This document shows positions 3,624 through 22,211 of a stretch of 22,211 nucleotides of DNA, one piece after another. The notes beneath the pieces were generated by a model. That model did no database searches, was not told the DNA's origin, and worked only from the letters and a program-made list of their open reading frames with translations. How positions within the stretch are numbered: position 1 is the stretch's first letter; each line of letters opens with the position of its first letter. Source of the DNA: a virus; the IMG/VR virus record IMGVR_UViG_3300014638_000001; one strand, 5' to 3'. The position numbers and the translations under genes were made by a program.

Positions 3624-4080
3624 GTGGTTCCTCCAGTGGTGCTGGTGAAATATGGATGATCTTTCTGACGGCTGCGGCATTCCAGATGCAGCCGCTTGCG
3701 CAGTCCCACGGATAATACCAATCGACGCCAGGATAAAGCCTTCGACCCCAAAGGTATGGCGCGATGATAATGCCGTGGTGTTGTGTAGCAATCTTCGGCC
3801 AGTCCATCCGATAGCTGCCAAGGCCATATTGCTCGGTAAGTGTGTCGAGATCGCTGGCATTACGGATTCGCAAGATATTGGCTCCCTTGTGGAGGAGTAT
3901 CCGGCTTGCGTGGGTTAATTTGTCCAGAGCGAACCCTTCGTTGAGGCACCATCCCTTCCAGTCAGCAGGCCCGTCCACTGATACCCATAAGCCGGTTGGT
4001 TTGAAGTATATTTCCTGCTTGGCAATCGGCGTCGAATAGATTGTTGTCAGCGGTTTATCGCTGTAGTGGGTAAGACTCAC
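3616..4080 (-). CDS. conserved viral hypothetical protein, possibly ADP-ribosyltransferase-like fold
   Basis: 154 aa; H-Y-S near the N-terminus, KPTGLWVS, WD.ASGCIWN; the fold call is inference. Confidence 0.7.
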   Translation of the reverse strand: MSLTHYSDKPLTTIYSTPIAKQEIYFKPTGLWVSVDGPADWKGWCLNEGFALDKLTHASRILLHKGANILRIRNASDLDTLTEQYGLGSYRMDWPKIATQHHGIIIAPYLWGRRLYPGVDWYYPWDCASGCIWNAAAVRKIIHISPAPLEEPHA

Positions 4081-5257: not shown

Positions 5258-5923
5258 ATGTCACGAGAGATTGTACCAGTGTTAGTCCCGGTCGTGTTGC
5301 CGACGATCGAGCCGATCAAGTCAACGGATTACAAGGTCAACCCGATCACTGGATGCTGGATCTGGTTAAAGCATTCTGATCCAGAAGGCTATGCGCTCGA
5401 TGACTTTGGCCGGTTTATCGAGCGCCAAGTCTACCGTGAGCACAAAGGCGAGATCCCGGACGGCTATGAGATCGATCATCTGTGCTGGCATCCGAGGTGT
5501 ATCAATCCAGAGCACTTACAGGCTATTACCGGTGTGGAAAACAACCGCGCAAAGCCGACAAATGTGCTCACAATGGAGAAGGCGAAGCAGATCCGTGAGA
5601 AGGCTGCTGCTGGCGTGCCGACCGTAGCCCTAGTGCAAGAATTCGGCGCCGCGCCATCAACTATCCGCAGTGTGCTGCACAACGTGAGTTGGACTGACCC
5701 GGACTACAAGCCAGTTTTGAACTATCACAGCAAGCGAGAAGCTAACCCGCGGACCGTGCGAAGAGTTCGAGCACTTCGCGCAGGCGGGATGTCTTACGGT
5801 GAGATCGTAGACCAGACGCACATCAGGCGCAGCAAAGTGATCGCATACTGCTCTGGTCGATACCTCGGCGAAGAGTTCAACACAGTCTTCACCGACGCAT
5901 CGCCTAGCCAAAAGATAGACTAA
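5258..5923 (+). CDS. HNH homing-type endonuclease with C-terminal HTH-like repeats
   Basis: GCWIW...GY...IPDGYEIDHLCWHPRCINPEHLQAIT..ENN motif; TGcTATACT extended -10 at 5240-5248. Confidence 0.85.
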   Translation: MSREIVPVLVPVVLPTIEPIKSTDYKVNPITGCWIWLKHSDPEGYALDDFGRFIERQVYREHKGEIPDGYEIDHLCWHPRCINPEHLQAITGVENNRAKPTNVLTMEKAKQIREKAAAGVPTVALVQEFGAAPSTIRSVLHNVSWTDPDYKPVLNYHSKREANPRTVRRVRALRAGGMSYGEIVDQTHIRRSKVIAYCSGRYLGEEFNTVFTDASPSQKID

Positions 5924-13434: not shown

Positions 13435-13508
13435 TGGCTCCAAGGGAGGGAGTCGAACCCCCATAGCGCGGTTAACAGCCGCGTGCTCTACCGTTGAGCT
13501 ACCAAGGA
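13435..13508 (-). tRNA. tRNA-Asn(GTT), two U-U mismatches in the acceptor stem
   Basis: CGCGG-CTGTTAA-CCGCG; G73; CCA. Confidence 0.88.
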
Positions 13509-13522
13509 ACAAACAAAACTTT

Positions 13523-13597
13523 TGGTACCCCGCTCCGGATTTGAACCGGAATTCACAGCTTCGTAGACTGTAGTCCTGTCCGTTGAACGAACGGGGC
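13523..13597 (-). tRNA. tRNA-Arg(ACG)
   Basis: ACAGT-CTACGAA-GCTGT; A20; CCA. Confidence 0.92.
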
Positions 13598-18492: not shown

Positions 18493-19338
18493 ATGACAAC
18501 CACACAAGAGCCGGATACCGCTACGGCGCCGGCCACCGCAACCGCTAAAGAAATTCTCGTCAACGTTGTTCTCGATCGTTCCGGATCCATGCAATCCTGC
18601 CAGGATGGCACCATTTCCGGTTACAATGAATATCTGAAAGGGCTGAAGGCTGACAAGGACAACAACTACAACGTCAGTCTGATCCAATTCGACACGCCGG
18701 CTAACCAGCCGGAGCTGACCGTTAGCTACGTTGACAAGCCGCTTGCCGATGTTCCCGAACTCAACAACACAACCTACCAGCCACGTGGGATGACCCCGCT
18801 ATACGACGCGATCGGCGAATGCGTCCGCCGGGTGGACGCCAAGTCCCGCGGCGTGCTCACGGTGATCATCACTGACGGCATGGAGAATGCCAGCCAGGAA
18901 TTCAACCTGGGATCAATCAAGAAGCTGATCAGCGAGAAAGAAGCCGAAGGTTGGAAGTTCATCTTTTTGGGCGCCAACATCGACAGTGCTGCGGTCGGCG
19001 GATCGATGGGGATCGCCGCAACGGACTGCGCAAACTACATGGTTGGCAACGAAGCGAGCGTTTATGCTAACGTTTCGAACAGCGCCATGCGCTATGCGAG
19101 TGCCACAACTTCACACGGTGTTGGCTCAGCGCATGCCCGCATGATGGCATGCTTTACCGTGGATGAGCGGAATTCGATGATCGGAGGTCGGCCTGCTGAG
19201 CCGAGCACGTTTCATATTCCCGCCACCGTCCATATTCCCTCCATCGTCACCAACCCGACCGGGAGTATCACTTTCGATCCGGCCAAAACGAAGCGGCCTA
19301 CGAACAAGCCAAGAACACAGTGGAAGGTTCGCAGTTAA
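18493..19338 (+). CDS. von Willebrand factor A (vWA) domain protein
   Basis: MIDAS motifs VLDRSGSM, GMTPLYDAIG, IITDGMEN; FIFLGAN. Confidence 0.9.
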   Translation: MTTTQEPDTATAPATATAKEILVNVVLDRSGSMQSCQDGTISGYNEYLKGLKADKDNNYNVSLIQFDTPANQPELTVSYVDKPLADVPELNNTTYQPRGMTPLYDAIGECVRRVDAKSRGVLTVIITDGMENASQEFNLGSIKKLISEKEAEGWKFIFLGANIDSAAVGGSMGIAATDCANYMVGNEASVYANVSNSAMRYASATTSHGVGSAHARMMACFTVDERNSMIGGRPAEPSTFHIPATVHIPSIVTNPTGSITFDPAKTKRPTNKPRTQWKVRS

Positions 19339-19542: not shown

Positions 19543-19902
19543 ATGGCGTTACCAAACGCACTCCCGTTCAAGACTGCCATGGTGCCGACCGGCATCCTGA
19601 AACCGCCGGCGGCTGGCAGTGCCATTTCATTGACTAGCAACTATGCCGATCTCGGGTCGAGCCAGCAGCAATTCGCGTTATTGCAGATTCGGGCGGCCCC
19701 CGGAAACGGCAGCAGCGTCTATCTGATCAATACCAGCGGATCCGCGGATGTCACGAGTTTTACAAACGTTCTTGATATTATTCCGCCGGGTGGGCAGACG
19801 CAGATCAACTTGACGCCATCGCAAGTAATCCTTCCAGGTCAATACTATATCGACGTTGCCAAGACCGGAGATTTCGCGGTGGCGCTGCTCGGGCAAATTT
19901 AA
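19543..19902 (+). CDS. hypothetical beta-rich protein
   Basis: 119 aa; TATACT is 6 nt before the ATG. Confidence 0.75.
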   Translation: MALPNALPFKTAMVPTGILKPPAAGSAISLTSNYADLGSSQQQFALLQIRAAPGNGSSVYLINTSGSADVTSFTNVLDIIPPGGQTQINLTPSQVILPGQYYIDVAKTGDFAVALLGQI

Positions 19903-19915
19903 TTCAAAATTTCAC

Positions 19916-19945
19916 TTGCGTTTCAAAAAAGTCTGCTGTTATAGT
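19916..19945 (+). promoter_or_regulatory. promoter TTGCGT-18-TATAGT with extended TG
   Basis: Upstream of the RNA/TROVE cluster. Confidence 0.65.
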
Positions 19946-20104
19946 TGAAATGCAGCCAGCTTTGCGGACGTGAGTTCGGCAAATGGCGCGGTTAGCAGCT
20001 CCGGGTAAAAAGCTTGCCATTGTGTGTGCTCCTCCGGTGGCCCGGCGGGGTCGCCAAAAACGCACACCGGGGCGTCAACGTTTGAGAGCGGGGCGCCCCC
20101 ACCA

Positions 20105-20117
20105 AGTTCTTTGAGAA
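20105..20117 (+). promoter_or_regulatory. boxA-like element AGTTCTTTGAGAA
   Basis: Same motif as in the tRNA array; just before tRNA-Met. Confidence 0.6.
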
Positions 20118-20129
20118 TTGAAAGTTTGT

Positions 20130-20206
20130 AGCGCGGTGGAGCAGGCTGGTAGCTCGTTTGCCTCATAAGCAAAAGGTCGGTGGTTCAAATCCACCCCGCG
20201 CCACCA
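20130..20206 (+). tRNA. tRNA-Met(CAT), initiator-like
   Basis: A1xC72 mismatch; fMet-type D arm TGGAGCAG..TGGTAGCTCG; T-loop TTCAAAT; CCA. Confidence 0.9.
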
Positions 20207-20210
20207 AGTT

Positions 20211-20352
20211 TGGGCTGATACTGTTTGAAGTGCCATACACGAAGGGCCACCAAGGAAGCGGGCGCGGCGGCCGCTGACCCTTCCACCGTCGCGAGGCGTA
20301 AGCCTTCGGGGAGATAAACCCTAGCGGAAGCTCCAAGCGATTTAACAGCCCA
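20211..20352 (+). ncRNA. Y-RNA-like RNA 1
   Basis: Terminal stem TGGGCTG/CAGCCCA; internal loop ATACT/GATTTAA; second stem GTTTG/CAAGC. Confidence 0.6.
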
Positions 20353-20358
20353 TTGATT

Positions 20359-20488
20359 TTGGCGGATACTGTTCGGGCTCACACGTAGCTCATTTGGTAG
20401 AGCGCTTCGCCTTCGCTTGAGACGAAGATGTAACTGGTTCAACTCCAGTCGTCCCCGCAAGGGGTTGCTCGAGCGATTTAACCGCCAA
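20359..20488 (+). ncRNA. Y-RNA-like RNA 2 with a tRNA-like domain
   Basis: TTGGCGG/CCGCCAA; ATACT/GATTTAA loop; internal D arm GCTC-ATTTGGTA-GAGC and T arm ACTGG-TTCAACT-CCAGT. Confidence 0.7.
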
Positions 20489-20494
20489 GTAAGT

Positions 20495-20735
20495 TTGGCT
20501 CGTATACTGCGGCTGGTCACACGTTTTCAGCTTAGTAAGCTGAAAATCCAGGTTCGAATCCTGGTCCCTCCACCGGGGAGGTTGAGCGGGGTCTCTCTGC
20601 GGCCCACAGAGAGATTTGTGGAACCGTTCAACCCTCGCGGTGGGGGGATCGTCCAACGGTAGGACATCAACGTCTTTCGGGTGCCGGTGAAAGCTGGTGC
20701 TTGATTGAAAACCAGAAGCGATTTACGCGAGCCAA
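20495..20735 (+). ncRNA. YrlA-like Y RNA 3 (permuted tRNA domain)
   Basis: TTGGCTCGT/GCGAGCCAA; ATACT/GATTTAC loop; T arm (20548-20564), then a closed acceptor-like stem (20565-20648), then a D arm GTCC-AACGGTA-GGAC. Confidence 0.75.
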
Positions 20736-20768
20736 TTAAAAATGTCAACTTTATGAAACGAGACAGCC

Positions 20769-22211
20769 ATGATCGAACAAGCGCTCAGCAAGACAGCCAT
20801 CATTTCGCAGCTCGCGCAATCGCCGCATGGCAAACTCGAAGCCTACCTCCCTGTTGGTGAAGTTGCCGCCCGGCAGGAGCCGGAATTTCTCTCGCATCTC
20901 ATCGCCTATAACCGGATCCACGGCCAGGTGCGCGACGCCAAGGTTGCCTTGCCGGTTGTGTTTTTGGCGAAGGGTGCGCTGAATGTCGAGTACATCGACA
21001 ACGCATTGGCGCATCTGGCATTGCTCGATGTTCGAAACTTCGAGCAGGCCGTACGCTTCGCGAAGACGCAGCATGCCCGAATGCACCGGGTGAACGATGT
21101 AGTGCGGCGCTACGTCCGTGTGCGCGAAGCCAACACGTTTCGCTGGGAAAAGGCAGCGGTGCAGCATCGCGAGACACTGACCAATTTGTATGCTCTCGCG
21201 CGTGTACGCCCGGCGCCATGGGCGAACGAGATTCTGTTCAAGCAGAAGTATCCGCGCGGCTCGGTTTTTGAGGCGATCGACAACCTGAAGAATATGACAC
21301 CACTCGAGGCGGCCGGCACGATCGCCGCTCGCAAGATTCCGTTTTTGATTGCCGTCGGCGCCTTGGGCGCCAAGTCGAAGGATCCGGACCTGGTGTTGGC
21401 GATGATCAACCGGATGTCGCCATCGGAGCTAGTCAACAACACAACCATGCTGCAGCGCATGGGAGTGAAGACGGTCCCGGCACTTCGTGCAGCTTATGAC
21501 GAAGCTCTGGCGAAGGCCGCTGGCAGCAAGAAGAACACGCTGAAGGTGACGAAGATCATCGAGAATGCCGAAGAGGAGCTCGATGAAGGCACTGTCGAGA
21601 AACTGAAGGTGCTCCAGGAGAAGCAGATCAAGACCCTTGGCGGTATCGATGGCAATTGGCTCGTGTTGGCCGATAAGTCTGGCTCGATGACGATGGCGAT
21701 CGAAGCATCGCGGCACATCGCGGCAACGCTTGCCCGGATGGTGAAGGGTAAAGTGTGGCTGGTGTTCTTCGATACGATGCCGCGGGGCACGGAAGTGACC
21801 GGCATGACCTATGAGCAGATTCGCGACAGAACCAAGGGCGTGACCGCGAATGGTGGCACGTCGATCGGTTGCGGTTTGCTCGGGATGCTGGAAGCTAATG
21901 TCGAGGTTGACGGCATCGCCATCGTGTCGGATGGCGGTGAAAACCAGCCGCCCTTGTTCCCGGCGGTCTACAAGTTGTACTGTGAGAAATTCGGCAAGGA
22001 ACCGCCGGTGTATTTGTACCGGCTGAACGGCGAAATCGATTACCTAAGCCATGAGATGCAGCAAGTTGGACTCGATTTGCAGAAGTTCGATTTGGCCGGC
22101 AACACGGTGGATTATTACGCGCTGCCGAATCTGGTCCAGACCATGTCGTGTCAACGCTACGGTTTGATACAGAAGATCTTGGACACGCCGCTCTTGCGGC
22201 TGGACGACATT
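20769..22211 (+). CDS. divergent Ro60/TROVE-like protein with a C-terminal vWA domain (3'-truncated by the window)
   Basis: Translated by hand: open for 481 codons from MIEQALSKTAIISQLAQSPHGKL; helical N-terminal region, then vWA motifs LADKSGSM, GGTSIG, IVSDGGEN; adjacent to Y-like RNAs. Confidence 0.75.
   Translation, partial: MIEQALSKTAIISQLAQSPHGKLEAYLPVGEVAARQEPEFLSHLIAYNRIHGQVRDAKVALPVVFLAKGALNVEYIDNALAHLALLDVRNFEQAVRFAKTQHARMHRVNDVVRRYVRVREANTFRWEKAAVQHRETLTNLYALARVRPAPWANEILFKQKYPRGSVFEAIDNLKNMTPLEAAGTIAARKIPFLIAVGALGAKSKDPDLVLAMINRMSPSELVNNTTMLQRMGVKTVPALRAAYDEALAKAAGSKKNTLKVTKIIENAEEELDEGTVEKLKVLQEKQIKTLGGIDGNWLVLADKSGSMTMAIEASRHIAATLARMVKGKVWLVFFDTMPRGTEVTGMTYEQIRDRTKGVTANGGTSIGCGLLGMLEANVEVDGIAIVSDGGENQPPLFPAVYKLYCEKFGKEPPVYLYRLNGEIDYLSHEMQQVGLDLQKFDLAGNTVDYYALPNLVQTMSCQRYGLIQKILDTPLLRLDDI

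What the first reader, a model, noticed from the sequence alone, without database searches (positions are those of the whole stretch)
20495..20735. Circularly permuted tRNA mimic with large insertions (YrlA topology)
Seen: the order is T arm (CCAGG-TTCGAAT-CCTGG), then an 11-bp acceptor-like stem capped by a roughly 60-nt hairpin, then TC, then a D arm (GTCC-AACGGTA-GGAC), with extra hairpins on either side. The neighbouring RNA 2 has its tRNA arms in the normal D-anticodon-T order with a 13-nt anticodon loop. Two different tRNA-mimic topologies on the same end stem suggest independent captures of tRNA sequence (inference).
Basis: partly seen in the sequence, partly recalled or inferred. Interest (0 to 1): 0.7.

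Follow-up and report, generated by a model that had tools for sequence, protein, structure and literature searches.

The report
Phage Y RNA with permuted tRNA mimic
This 240-base stretch encodes a small RNA of a known type (a YrlA-like "Y RNA" with a rearranged tRNA look-alike inside), sitting just before a very divergent phage version of the Ro60 RNA-binding protein. It is a real and well-conserved feature, and a variant of something already described rather than a new kind of thing.

Summary
From 5' to 3' there is a hairpin, a T arm (20548-20564), and an 11-bp acceptor-like stem capped by a 62-nt hairpin. Then come UC, a D arm (20651-20665) and another hairpin, all closed by a terminal stem.

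The ORF 34 nt downstream (495 aa) has no Pfam TROVE hit. Its AlphaFold model matches Ro60 structures over the whole length (Z 17-20.5).

Upstream of homologues of that protein, 73 of 73 covariance-model hits lie on the gene strand. They show the same V-T-acceptor-D order, and all seven acceptor pairs covary. Tertiary pair 15:48 switches between A:U and G:C.

A model built without the window finds RNA 3 (E 6e-12). It also finds units next to TROVE or Ro-annotated genes in five cultured phages.

So this is a YrlA-type Y RNA. The differences are:
- The published GNCGAA motif is replaced by an AUACUG/GCGAUUUA internal loop.
- The partner Ro60 is very divergent.
- The 70-nt acceptor loop is the longest seen.

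I rate it a new variant of a known kind, of moderate interest.

The parts
20496..20510 (+). 5' strand of the terminal stem of RNA 3. The outer helix is 20496-20503. The conserved internal-loop strand AUACUG is 20504-20509.
   Evidence: MFE helices. All three RNAs of the window share the same loop, AUACUG / GCGAUUUA, on outer stems of different sequence. In relatives the outer 6 nt pair 6/6 in 67% of units, against 7% when partners are swapped.
20513..20523 (+). Inner closing helix strand CUGGU (20513-20517) and junction motif UCACACG (20517-20523). The motif is the counterpart of UUACAUG in relatives.
   Evidence: The letters ACA and G of this motif are invariant in the 38-sequence alignment A3.
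20523..20547 (+). V (anticodon-arm-like) hairpin. It folds as 11 bp with a 3-nt loop, or as 5 bp with the 7-nt loop UUAGUAA. U20547 takes position 48.
   Evidence: Fold z = -5.0. Rfam's tRNA model aligns it as an anticodon arm (21.9 bits, below threshold). Most relatives have a hairpin at this place.
20548..20564 (+). T arm CCAGG-UUCGAAU-CCUGG.
   Evidence: The T stem is 100% paired, with changes on both sides in 3-4 of its 5 pairs across relatives.
20565..20571 (+). Acceptor 3' strand UCCCUCC. It pairs with 20642-20648.
   Evidence: 7/7 pairs in the window. All seven pairs change on both sides across 72 relatives and are 97% paired.
20572..20641 (+). 70-nt acceptor loop. ACC(G) at 20572-20575 pairs with CGGU at 20638-20641. 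A 62-nt irregular hairpin (20576-20637) forms a long rod.
   Evidence: Fold z = -5.8. The loop has a median of 8 nt and at most 43 nt in relatives, so this is the longest seen. No relative carries the insert, so it has no comparative support.
20642..20650 (+). Acceptor 5' strand GGGGGGA (20642-20648) and linker UC (positions 8 and 9).
   Evidence: U8 is present in 37 of 38 relatives, and the linker is UA in most of them.
20651..20666 (+). D arm GUCC-AACGGUA-GGAC followed by A26.
   Evidence: A15 pairs with U48 (20547). The 15:48 pair is A:U in 23, G:C in 12 and other in 3 of 38 units, Fisher p = 1.7e-7.
20673..20708 (+). Hairpin B, at the place of a tRNA anticodon arm. It has 12 bp, about half of them G-U, and a GAAA loop.
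   Evidence: Fold z = -2.9. Some relatives carry an anticodon-like hairpin at this place instead of the V hairpin. This particular hairpin has no comparative support.
20711..20734 (+). 3' strands of the closing helices: ACCAG (20711-20715), the internal-loop strand GCGAUUUA (20718-20725) and the outer helix (20727-20734).
20769..22211 (+). Gene for a divergent Ro60-like protein. It runs past the window end and is 495 aa in full. It has helical repeats at residues 8-290 and a vWA domain with a DxSxS MIDAS motif at 297-457.
   Evidence: Full ORF from the contig. AlphaFold mean pLDDT 87. The 13 best Foldseek hits (ranks 1-13) are all Ro60/TROVE. VIA-align Z is 17-20.5 over 417-439 residues, against 14.4 or less for vWA-only hits. 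Pfam TROVE does not match.
20212..20487 (+). Sister RNAs 1 (20212-20351) and 2 (20360-20487) on the same kind of terminal stem. RNA 2 holds a tRNA-like body in the normal order.

Best explanation
RNA 3 (about 20496-20734, + strand) is a Y RNA of the YrlA type. It is the third of three tandem Y-like RNAs that precede a phage gene for a very divergent Ro60 protein.

Shown here:
- The RNA folds into a terminal stem with a conserved asymmetric internal loop (5' AUACUG / 3' GCGAUUUA).
- The distal module is a tRNA body read in permuted order: anticodon-arm-like V hairpin, U48, T arm, closed 7-bp acceptor stem, U8, D arm.
- It keeps the nucleotides needed for the tRNA elbow and for the 15:48 pair.

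Inferred by analogy with Xenopus, Deinococcus, Salmonella and Thermus-phage Ro60 particles:
- The RNAs are made as one precursor together with tRNA-Met and perhaps the Ro60 mRNA, then cut apart.
- The terminal stem and loop dock on the phage Ro60 ring.
- The tRNA-like module recruits a host tRNA-binding factor or exoribonuclease such as PNPase, giving the phage a hand in host RNA turnover or quality control.

The 70-nt acceptor loop makes the acceptor arm a rod of about 34 base pairs. In this RNA the arm is therefore most likely closed and uncharged, as in Salmonella YrlA and as predicted for the long-stemmed cyanobacterial YrlAs.
For: Structure:
- Significant folds.

Comparative evidence:
- 38 hand-picked units and 72 model-found units upstream of homologues of the protein are 92-93% paired, against 59-60% when shuffled and 30-57% when slid.
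- 14-15 of the 16 pairs change on both sides, including all 7 acceptor pairs.
- The 15:48 pair covaries.
- 73 of 73 hits are on the gene strand and 69 of them lie upstream of the gene.
- The terminal stem covaries around fixed loop motifs, YACUG and NCGAYUU.

Independent detection:
- Model R2, built without the window, gives 54.6 bits.

Partner protein:
- Ro60 fold over the full length.

Cross-family test:
- R2 finds same-strand units directly upstream of TROVE or Ro-annotated genes in Caulobacter phage CcrColossus (5 units), Streptomyces phage BRock, Xanthomonas phage 10KY502B, Rhizobium phage RHph_TM39 and Gordonia phage VanLee.

Literature:
- YrlA element order, closed acceptor stem and variable stem length (PMC4201824; 10.1101/312249).
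- A phage Ro60 binds phage Y-like RNAs and host PNPase (PMC12135203).
Against: - There is no expression, end-mapping or binding data. No RNA run was listed.
- The published 5' motif GNCGAAN0-1G is absent from RNA 3 and its relatives.
- The window RNA departs from the family at two conserved spots: UCAC instead of YUAY, and UC instead of the UA linker.
- The Ro60 assignment rests on a predicted structure at 12-15% identity. Pfam TROVE gives nothing, even at E 10.
- The insert and hairpin B are supported by thermodynamics only.
- The covariance models also score true tRNA-tRNA junctions (41 bits).
- Units for alignment A3 were chosen for at least 6 of 7 acceptor pairs, and alignment A4 is fitted to the model.
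Confidence: 0.8

Rival explanations
1. RNA 3 has the same YrlA-type module but is a precursor. RNase P cuts 5' of GGGGGGA (20642), the insert is trimmed back to ACC, and CCA is completed. The result is a two-piece Y RNA with a free acceptor end that might be charged, as reported for Mycobacterium smegmatis YrlA.
For: - The acceptor stem is exactly 7 bp and is followed by ACC.
- Of the 46 relatives whose acceptor loop has 7 nt or more, 23 begin it with NCC and 17 of those with NCCA. About 6% would be expected by chance.
- M. smegmatis YrlA, which also has a 7-bp stem, is cut by RNase P and receives CCA (PMC4201824).
Against: - In the window the ACC is paired (ACCG/CGGU) and the stem runs on as a continuous rod. 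That should be a poor RNase P substrate (inference from general knowledge of RNase P).
- About a third of the relatives close the stem with 2-6 nt and no CCA.
- There are no RNA-end data.
Confidence: 0.12
2. It is not a stable trans-acting RNA. Instead it is a structured 5' leader of the Ro60-like mRNA, for example an autoregulatory binding site for the protein.
For: It ends 34 nt before the start codon. No terminator-like site was found between it and the gene.
Against: - In relatives the same units stand in arrays of several tandem copies (up to about 7), as far as about 2 kb upstream.
- Bacterial Y RNAs are known to be processed from polycistronic precursors upstream of rsr (PMC4201824).
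- The tRNA-like core is conserved far beyond what a binding site would need.
Confidence: 0.05
3. It is a junction of two decayed tandem tRNA genes, or a permuted tRNA gene that matures into a decoding tRNA.
For: - The models score a true tRNA-Arg/tRNA-Asn junction at 41 bits.
- NCCA follows the acceptor 3' strand in many relatives.
- The V hairpin has an anticodon-like 7-nt loop.
Against: - ARAGORN calls no tRNA here.
- The T-side half has no D arm or 5' acceptor strand of its own.
- The two acceptor strands pair with each other 7/7 and covary across 72 units, whereas the true junction shows mismatches.
- The unit is enclosed by a covarying terminal stem.
- V hairpins are short, variable or absent.
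- I know of no bacterial pathway that re-joins permuted tRNA halves (own knowledge).
Confidence: 0.03

Closest known systems
YrlA RNAs of Salmonella Typhimurium, Mycobacterium smegmatis and about 250 bacteria and 22 phages (Chen et al. 2014, PMC4201824; crystal structure 6CU1, preprint 10.1101/312249)
   Same: - Encoded next to a Ro60 gene and on the same strand.
- A terminal stem carries a permuted tRNA-like module in the order V, T, closed acceptor stem, D.
- Conserved T and D loops, U8 and the 15:48 covariation.
- Variable acceptor-stem length.
- A 7-bp stem followed by C residues, as in M. smegmatis.
   Different: - No GNCGAAN0-1G motif. A different conserved internal loop (AUACUG/GCGAUUUA; YACUG/NCGACUU in relatives) takes its place.
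- UCAC instead of YUAY, and UC instead of the UA linker.
- A 70-nt acceptor loop.
- An extra hairpin after the D arm.
- The partner protein is not recognised as TROVE by sequence.
Tandem YrlA-like units upstream of the TROVE gene gp139 of Caulobacter phage CcrColossus (NC_019406.1, 108.5-109.5 kb)
   Same: - An array of several units on the gene strand, with the same V-T-acceptor-D order.
- One unit (L076 4657-4768, minus strand) has ACCA followed by a hairpin inside the acceptor loop, like the window's insert.
   Different: - The junction motif is UUACUUCG rather than UUACAUG/UCACACG.
- The terminal stems are different (GGUGGCGUAGA... / ...UUCCCCCACC).
- The protein there is a sequence-recognisable TROVE protein.
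Thermus phage phiLo Ro60 with Yrl1 and Yrl2 (PMC12135203; PDB 9KOP, 9L5Y)
   Same: - A phage-encoded Ro60 with Y-like RNAs encoded just upstream.
- It is among the best structural matches to the window's protein.
- It shows that a phage Ro60 particle can engage host PNPase.
   Different: The Yrl RNAs were picked by a CGAA motif and a stem-bulge-stem shape. That paper describes no tRNA-like module.
Deinococcus radiodurans Yrn1 (PMC4201824)
   Same: A Y RNA whose T and D elements lie in the opposite orientation to YrlA, with an anticodon-arm-like hairpin between them. That matches the layout of the neighbouring RNA 2.
   Different: Yrn1 lacks a full D arm and occurs in a different organism. Here both layouts sit in one operon on the same kind of stem.
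Circularly permuted tRNA genes of Cyanidioschyzon merolae (own knowledge, not checked here)
   Same: The 3' half of a tRNA body is encoded before the 5' half.
   Different: Those genes mature into ordinary decoding tRNAs through a circular intermediate. Here the ends stay in a long protein-binding stem, and the acceptor stem is closed.

Membership tests
YrlA-class Y RNA (Chen et al. 2014) | Encoded within about 4 kb of a Ro60 orthologue and on the same strand | tested here: met
   RNA 3 ends 34 nt before the ORF at 20769. The model of that ORF matches Ro60 structures at Z 17-20.5. In relatives, 73 of 73 hits are on the gene strand. Caveat: the protein has no Pfam TROVE hit.
YrlA-class Y RNA (Chen et al. 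2014) | Element order: end stem, (V), T stem-loop, closed acceptor-like stem-loop, D stem-loop | tested here: met
   with covariation.
YrlA-class Y RNA (Chen et al. 2014) | tRNA tertiary-interaction nucleotides, including compensatory G15:C48 / A15:U48 | tested here: met
   The window has U8, A14, A15:U48, G18 G19 and the T loop UUCGAAU. In relatives 15:48 is A:U in 23, G:C in 12 and other in 3 (p = 1.7e-7).
YrlA-class Y RNA (Chen et al. 2014) | GNCGAAN0-1G motif near the 5' end (presumed Ro60 contact) | tested here: not met
   No such motif occurs in 20495-20530. RNA 2 comes closest with GGCGGA. The family instead conserves 5' YACUG and 3' NCGAYUU.
YrlA-class Y RNA (Chen et al. 2014) | Conserved YUAY before the V region, and the UA dinucleotide between the acceptor stem and the D arm | tested here: inconclusive
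   Relatives have UUAC and mostly UA. The window RNA has UCAC and UC, keeping U8.
YrlA-class Y RNA (Chen et al. 2014) | Recognised by a YrlA covariance model | tested here: inconclusive
   The authors' model is not available, and no Rfam family other than tRNA matched. As a proxy, my model R2, built from this family without the window, hits RNAs beside TROVE or Ro-annotated genes in five cultured phages at E 1e-8 to 7e-14.
YrlA-class Y RNA (Chen et al. 2014) | Bound by Ro60; carries pseudouridine 55 and dihydrouridine | not testable with these tools
   This needs immunoprecipitation and modification mapping.
Ro60 / TROVE protein (partner gene) | Ring of HEAT-like helical repeats followed by a vWA domain with a MIDAS motif | tested here: met
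   Helices at 8-290 and an alpha/beta domain at 297-457. D302, S304, S306, T364 and D388 are invariant in 54 homologues. The ten best VIA-align hits are all Ro60.
Ro60 / TROVE protein (partner gene) | Match to Pfam TROVE (PF05731) | tested here: not met
   No hit to the protein at E 0.01 and none in the whole contig at E 10. There is only a weak PHROG 850 'RNA-binding protein' match, E 4e-5.
Canonical tRNA gene | Cloverleaf in the normal order with a free acceptor end and an anticodon | tested here: not met
   ARAGORN finds none in 20207-20760. Rfam's tRNA model gives 21.9 bits, below its 29-bit threshold, for 20511-20572.

The most novel reading that the evidence does not exclude
The permuted units are not closed mimics. 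[quoted passage not shown] The Ro60 ring would then carry a two-piece RNA with a free, possibly aminoacylated, NCCA end. Such a particle could serve the phage as a decoy or sensor for host enzymes that attack or use tRNAs. The frequent NCCA-plus-spacer loops would also be direct relics of the proposed origin of YrlA from tandem tRNA genes.
Probability: 0.12. Interest if true: 0.7.

Novelty: new variant of a known kind. Interest (0 to 1): 0.45.

Why it matters
Y RNAs and Ro60 are well studied in animals but poorly understood in bacteria and phages.

- **A hidden Ro60 clade.** A large clade of phage Ro60 proteins escapes sequence-based annotation. At least 993 proteins in metagenomes match, and none is labelled TROVE.
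- **A different docking motif.** This clade comes with arrays of Y RNAs that keep the YrlA tRNA-like core but use a different conserved motif in the terminal stem.
- **Comparative material.** About 70 covarying permuted units and 28 normal-order units are available. They can help work out which parts of the tRNA mimic matter, and test the tandem-tRNA origin idea.
- **Annotation.** Some "tRNA" annotations upstream of Ro genes in cultured phages probably need correction.

For the single RNA under review, the news is modest. It is a recognisable YrlA-type RNA with an unusually long acceptor arm.

Tried and rejected
- **Rfam.** Both the gathering and the permissive scans returned no family except tRNA for this region. 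A direct alignment to curated YrlA seed sequences was therefore not possible.
- **Closer relatives.** An exact 24-mer scan of viral contigs found nothing. An exact 20-mer of the insert, scanned in metagenome contigs, found only a contig 100% identical to the window over the 2,690 nt they share. The insert is not repeated in the phage record.
- **Expression.** No RNA holder was listed for the region.
- **Type YrlA.** A Salmonella contig in the phage collection has no TROVE gene, so the type YrlA could not be tested directly.
- **Reviews.** Two reviews (PMC10870794, PMC6047535) are not held.
- **Promoter and leader.** The sigma-70 scan found no promoter upstream of the tRNA-Met. The TTGCGT...TATAGT near 19917-19946 that I saw by eye fails the scan's criteria. 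The leader at 19950-20135 is not unusually structured (z = -0.7).
- **Origin of the two topologies.** Comparing T and D stems within and between phages gave no signal on whether the two topologies arose separately.
- **crAss001, Bacillus phage G and Microcystis phage loci.** In crAss001 the model found nothing. In Bacillus phage G the better hit (5593-5678) lies across the annotated tRNA-Asn/tRNA-Gln junction. In the Microcystis phage two hits lie in the annotated tRNA array, and one weak hit (3994-4074, 35 bits) lies in unannotated sequence just downstream of the gene and was not followed up.

Full report
**Observation.**
- The minimum-free-energy fold of 20495-20735 is -123.1 kcal/mol. The slightly longer stretch 20485-20745 gives -123.8 kcal/mol and z = -7.5 against shuffles.
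- A terminal stem pairs 20496-20510 with 20718-20734. An inner helix pairs CUGGU (20513-20517) with ACCAG (20711-20715).
- Five hairpins sit inside, in this order:
  - a hairpin at 20523-20547;
  - the T arm CCAGG-UUCGAAU-CCUGG at 20548-20564;
  - an 11-bp stem (20565-20575 with 20638-20648) capped by a 62-nt irregular hairpin;
  - after the linker UC, the D arm GUCC-AACGGUA-GGAC at 20651-20665;
  - a hairpin at 20673-20708.
- The sub-hairpins are individually better than chance, with z = -5.8, -5.0 and -2.9.
- The 11-bp stem is a 7-bp acceptor stem (UCCCUCC/GGGGGGA) extended by ACCG/CGGU. A discriminator-plus-CC is therefore encoded just where a tRNA would have it.
- ARAGORN calls no tRNA here. 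Rfam's tRNA model gives a sub-threshold partial match only.

**Setting.**
- The window is part of a 32-kb IMG/VR viral contig. The same DNA occurs in peat, wetland and lake metagenomes.
- RNA 3 is the last of three tandem RNAs: 20212-20351, 20360-20487 and 20498-20732.
- Their outer stems differ in sequence, but all enclose the same internal loop, AUACUG on the 5' side and GCGAUUUA on the 3' side.
- A normal tRNA-Met lies just upstream.
- An ORF starts 34 nt downstream of RNA 3. Its full length, read from the contig, is 495 aa.
- Pfam gives this protein only a weak vWA hit and no TROVE hit. TROVE is not found in the whole contig even at E 10.
- The protein has at least 993 homologues in metagenomes, none labelled TROVE.
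- An AlphaFold model built on 54 homologues (mean pLDDT 87) shows helical repeats followed by a vWA domain with an invariant DxSxS motif.
- The 13 best Foldseek hits (ranks 1-13) are all Ro60/TROVE proteins over the full length: Deinococcus Rsr, Xenopus and human Ro60, and Thermus phage phiLo Ro60.
- VIA-align gives Z 17-20.5 over 417-439 residues. vWA-only proteins follow at Z 14.4 or less.
- The gene therefore encodes a very divergent Ro60.

**Comparative RNA evidence.**
- I fetched 69 viral loci that encode homologues of the protein.
- Upstream of the gene, many carry a T-arm motif followed 36-56 nt later by a D-loop motif, which is the permuted order.
- In 38 distinct units the layout is the same:
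  - terminal stem;
  - junction motif UUACAUG;
  - a short hairpin and a 5-7-nt linker, often GAGGUC, like a tRNA variable loop;
  - T arm;
  - 7-bp acceptor stem;
  - a loop;
  - UA;
  - D arm.
- On that alignment, 92% of cells pair, against 60% after shuffling and 38-53% after sliding.
- 14 of the 16 pairs change on both sides, including all 7 acceptor pairs.
- A covariance model built from it found 73 hits at E of 1e-4 or lower in 47 of 61 loci. All 73 are on the gene strand and 69 lie upstream of the gene.
- Those 72 distinct sequences give the same picture: 93% paired, and 360 cells changed on both sides against 96 expected.
- The nucleotide before the T stem (position 48) tracks the second D-loop nucleotide (position 15). 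The pair is A:U in 23, G:C in 12 and other in 3 units, Fisher p = 1.7e-7. This is the Levitt pair that Chen et al. used as evidence for a tRNA fold in YrlA (PMC4201824). The window RNA has A15 and U48.
- The terminal stem also covaries. The 6 nt outside the loop motifs pair 6/6 in 67% of units, against 7% when partners are swapped.
- Caveats: the 38 units were chosen for at least 6 of 7 acceptor pairs, and the 73-sequence alignment is fitted to the model. The T-stem, D-stem and 15:48 signals were not selected for.

**Is it a YrlA?**
- The published description gives the order V, T, acceptor-like stem-loop, D on a Ro60-binding stem. It also gives a conserved YUAY, a UA linker, the tRNA tertiary nucleotides, variable acceptor length, and location beside Ro60 on the same strand (PMC4201824).
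- The structure preprint describes most YrlA RNAs as likely resembling circularly permuted tRNAs with closed acceptor stems. It notes that some stems, predicted in certain cyanobacteria, are much longer (10.1101/312249).
- A model built only from relatives, without the window, finds RNA 3 at 54.6 bits (E 6e-12).
- The same model finds same-strand units immediately upstream of sequence-recognisable TROVE or Ro-annotated genes in five cultured phages:
  - Caulobacter phage CcrColossus, five units;
  - Streptomyces phage BRock;
  - Xanthomonas phage 10KY502B;
  - Rhizobium phage RHph_TM39;
  - Gordonia phage VanLee.
- The phiLo paper cites CcrColossus among phages with Y RNA-like RNAs (PMC12135203).
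- One CcrColossus unit even has ACCA followed by a hairpin inside its acceptor loop, like the window's insert.
- The tRNA-like module is therefore of the YrlA kind.
- Three features differ:
  - The GNCGAAN0-1G motif is absent. The loop YACUG / NCGAYUU stands in its place.
  - The window RNA has UCAC for YUAY and UC for UA.
  - The partner protein is outside sequence-detectable TROVE.
- For these reasons I file it as a variant rather than a plain member.

**The insertion.**
- The acceptor loop has a median of 8 nt in relatives, and 43 nt at most in one doubtful hit. The window's 70 nt is the longest.
- No relative shares the insert. Its structure therefore rests on energy alone.
- Among the 46 units whose acceptor loop has 7 nt or more, 23 start with NCC and 17 of those with NCCA. 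About 6% would be expected by chance.
- This fits two ideas:
  - descent from tandem tRNA genes, the origin model quoted in 10.1101/312249;
  - RNase P and CCA processing, as shown for M. smegmatis YrlA (PMC4201824).
- In the window the ACC is base-paired within a continuous rod. I therefore think a closed, unprocessed arm is the likelier state.

**Mechanism.**
- Shown: the fold, its conservation, and its linkage to a Ro60-fold gene.
- Inferred by analogy:
  - co-transcription with tRNA-Met and the gene, since no terminator-like site lies between them;
  - processing into separate RNAs;
  - docking of the terminal stem and loop on the phage Ro60;
  - use of the tRNA-like end to engage a host tRNA-binding protein or an exoribonuclease. 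The phiLo Ro60 particle binds host PNPase and dampens its activity (PMC12135203).

- RNA 2's normal-order tRNA-like body is also conserved: 28 distinct units in 27 loci. Nearly all have 7-nt anticodon-like loops, whereas the window's loop is 13 nt.
- Chen et al. already noted that YrlA and Deinococcus Yrn1 have opposite arm orientations, and suggested that they evolved independently (PMC4201824).
- Here both layouts share one operon, one kind of stem and one junction motif.
- Their arm sequences are no more alike within a phage than between phages.
- I cannot tell independent capture from rearrangement of a tandem tRNA ancestor.

**False-positive class.** The models also score a real tRNA-Arg/tRNA-Asn junction in the window's tRNA array at 41 bits, with mismatched acceptor strands. 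The hit in Bacillus phage G across tRNA-Asn/tRNA-Gln, and two hits in the Microcystis phage tRNA array, are of this kind. Scores alone should not be used to call such RNAs inside tRNA arrays.

**Verdict.** This is a real, conserved, non-coding RNA. It is a YrlA-type permuted tRNA mimic on a new kind of Ro60-docking stem, beside a hidden clade of phage Ro60 proteins. It is a new variant of a known kind, of moderate interest.

Noticed in passing
window 20360-20487 (RNA 2); relatives such as L018:1895, L028:798, L004:2472: A second class of Y-like RNA holds a nearly complete tRNA body in the normal order (UACAUG-UA-D arm, anticodon arm, T arm, then a small GNRA-type hairpin) inside the same kind of terminal stem. 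It occurs as 28 distinct units in 27 loci, nearly all with 7-nt anticodon-like loops. The window's copy has a 13-nt loop. The layout resembles Deinococcus Yrn1.
   Followed up: partly
window 20212-20351 (RNA 1): A third RNA sits on the same terminal stem and loop but has no recognisable tRNA-like arms. It was not studied further.
   Followed up: no
L076 4718-4785 (CcrColossus 'tRNA-Gln'), L080 2301-2368 (Xanthomonas phage 10KY502B 'tRNA-Thr'), L081 1793-1864 (Gordonia phage VanLee 'tRNA-Arg'): Annotated tRNA genes just upstream of Ro or TROVE genes overlap hits of the YrlA-type model. In CcrColossus, ARAGORN finds no tRNA in that region. These are probably Y RNA modules mis-annotated as tRNAs.
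   Followed up: partly
L067:2800-2830, L050:2830-2855, L011:2429-2455, L071:2929-2950, L069:2156-2180, L072:168-190: Some permuted units lack the hairpin before the T arm. They carry instead an anticodon-like hairpin (7-nt loops such as CUUGUAA and CUCAUAA) after the D arm. The point where the terminal stem enters the tRNA body therefore differs between units. The window's RNA 3 has hairpins at both places.
   Followed up: partly
window 18493-19338 (+): A 281-aa ORF encodes a vWA-domain protein (PHROG 7371, E 3e-51). It lies about 1.4 kb upstream of the Ro60-like gene, which also has a vWA domain. A 119-aa ORF with no matches follows at 19543-19902.
   Followed up: no
window 13482-13573 (-): The junction between two real tRNA genes (Arg, then Asn) scores 41 bits with the permuted-mimic model. 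This shows how closely a tandem tRNA junction resembles a YrlA module.
   Followed up: yes
LR756511.1 285810-287216 (uncultured 595-kb phage): This is the only record in the GenBank phage collection with a homologue of the window's Ro60-like protein (31% identity). Its flanks were not examined.
   Followed up: no
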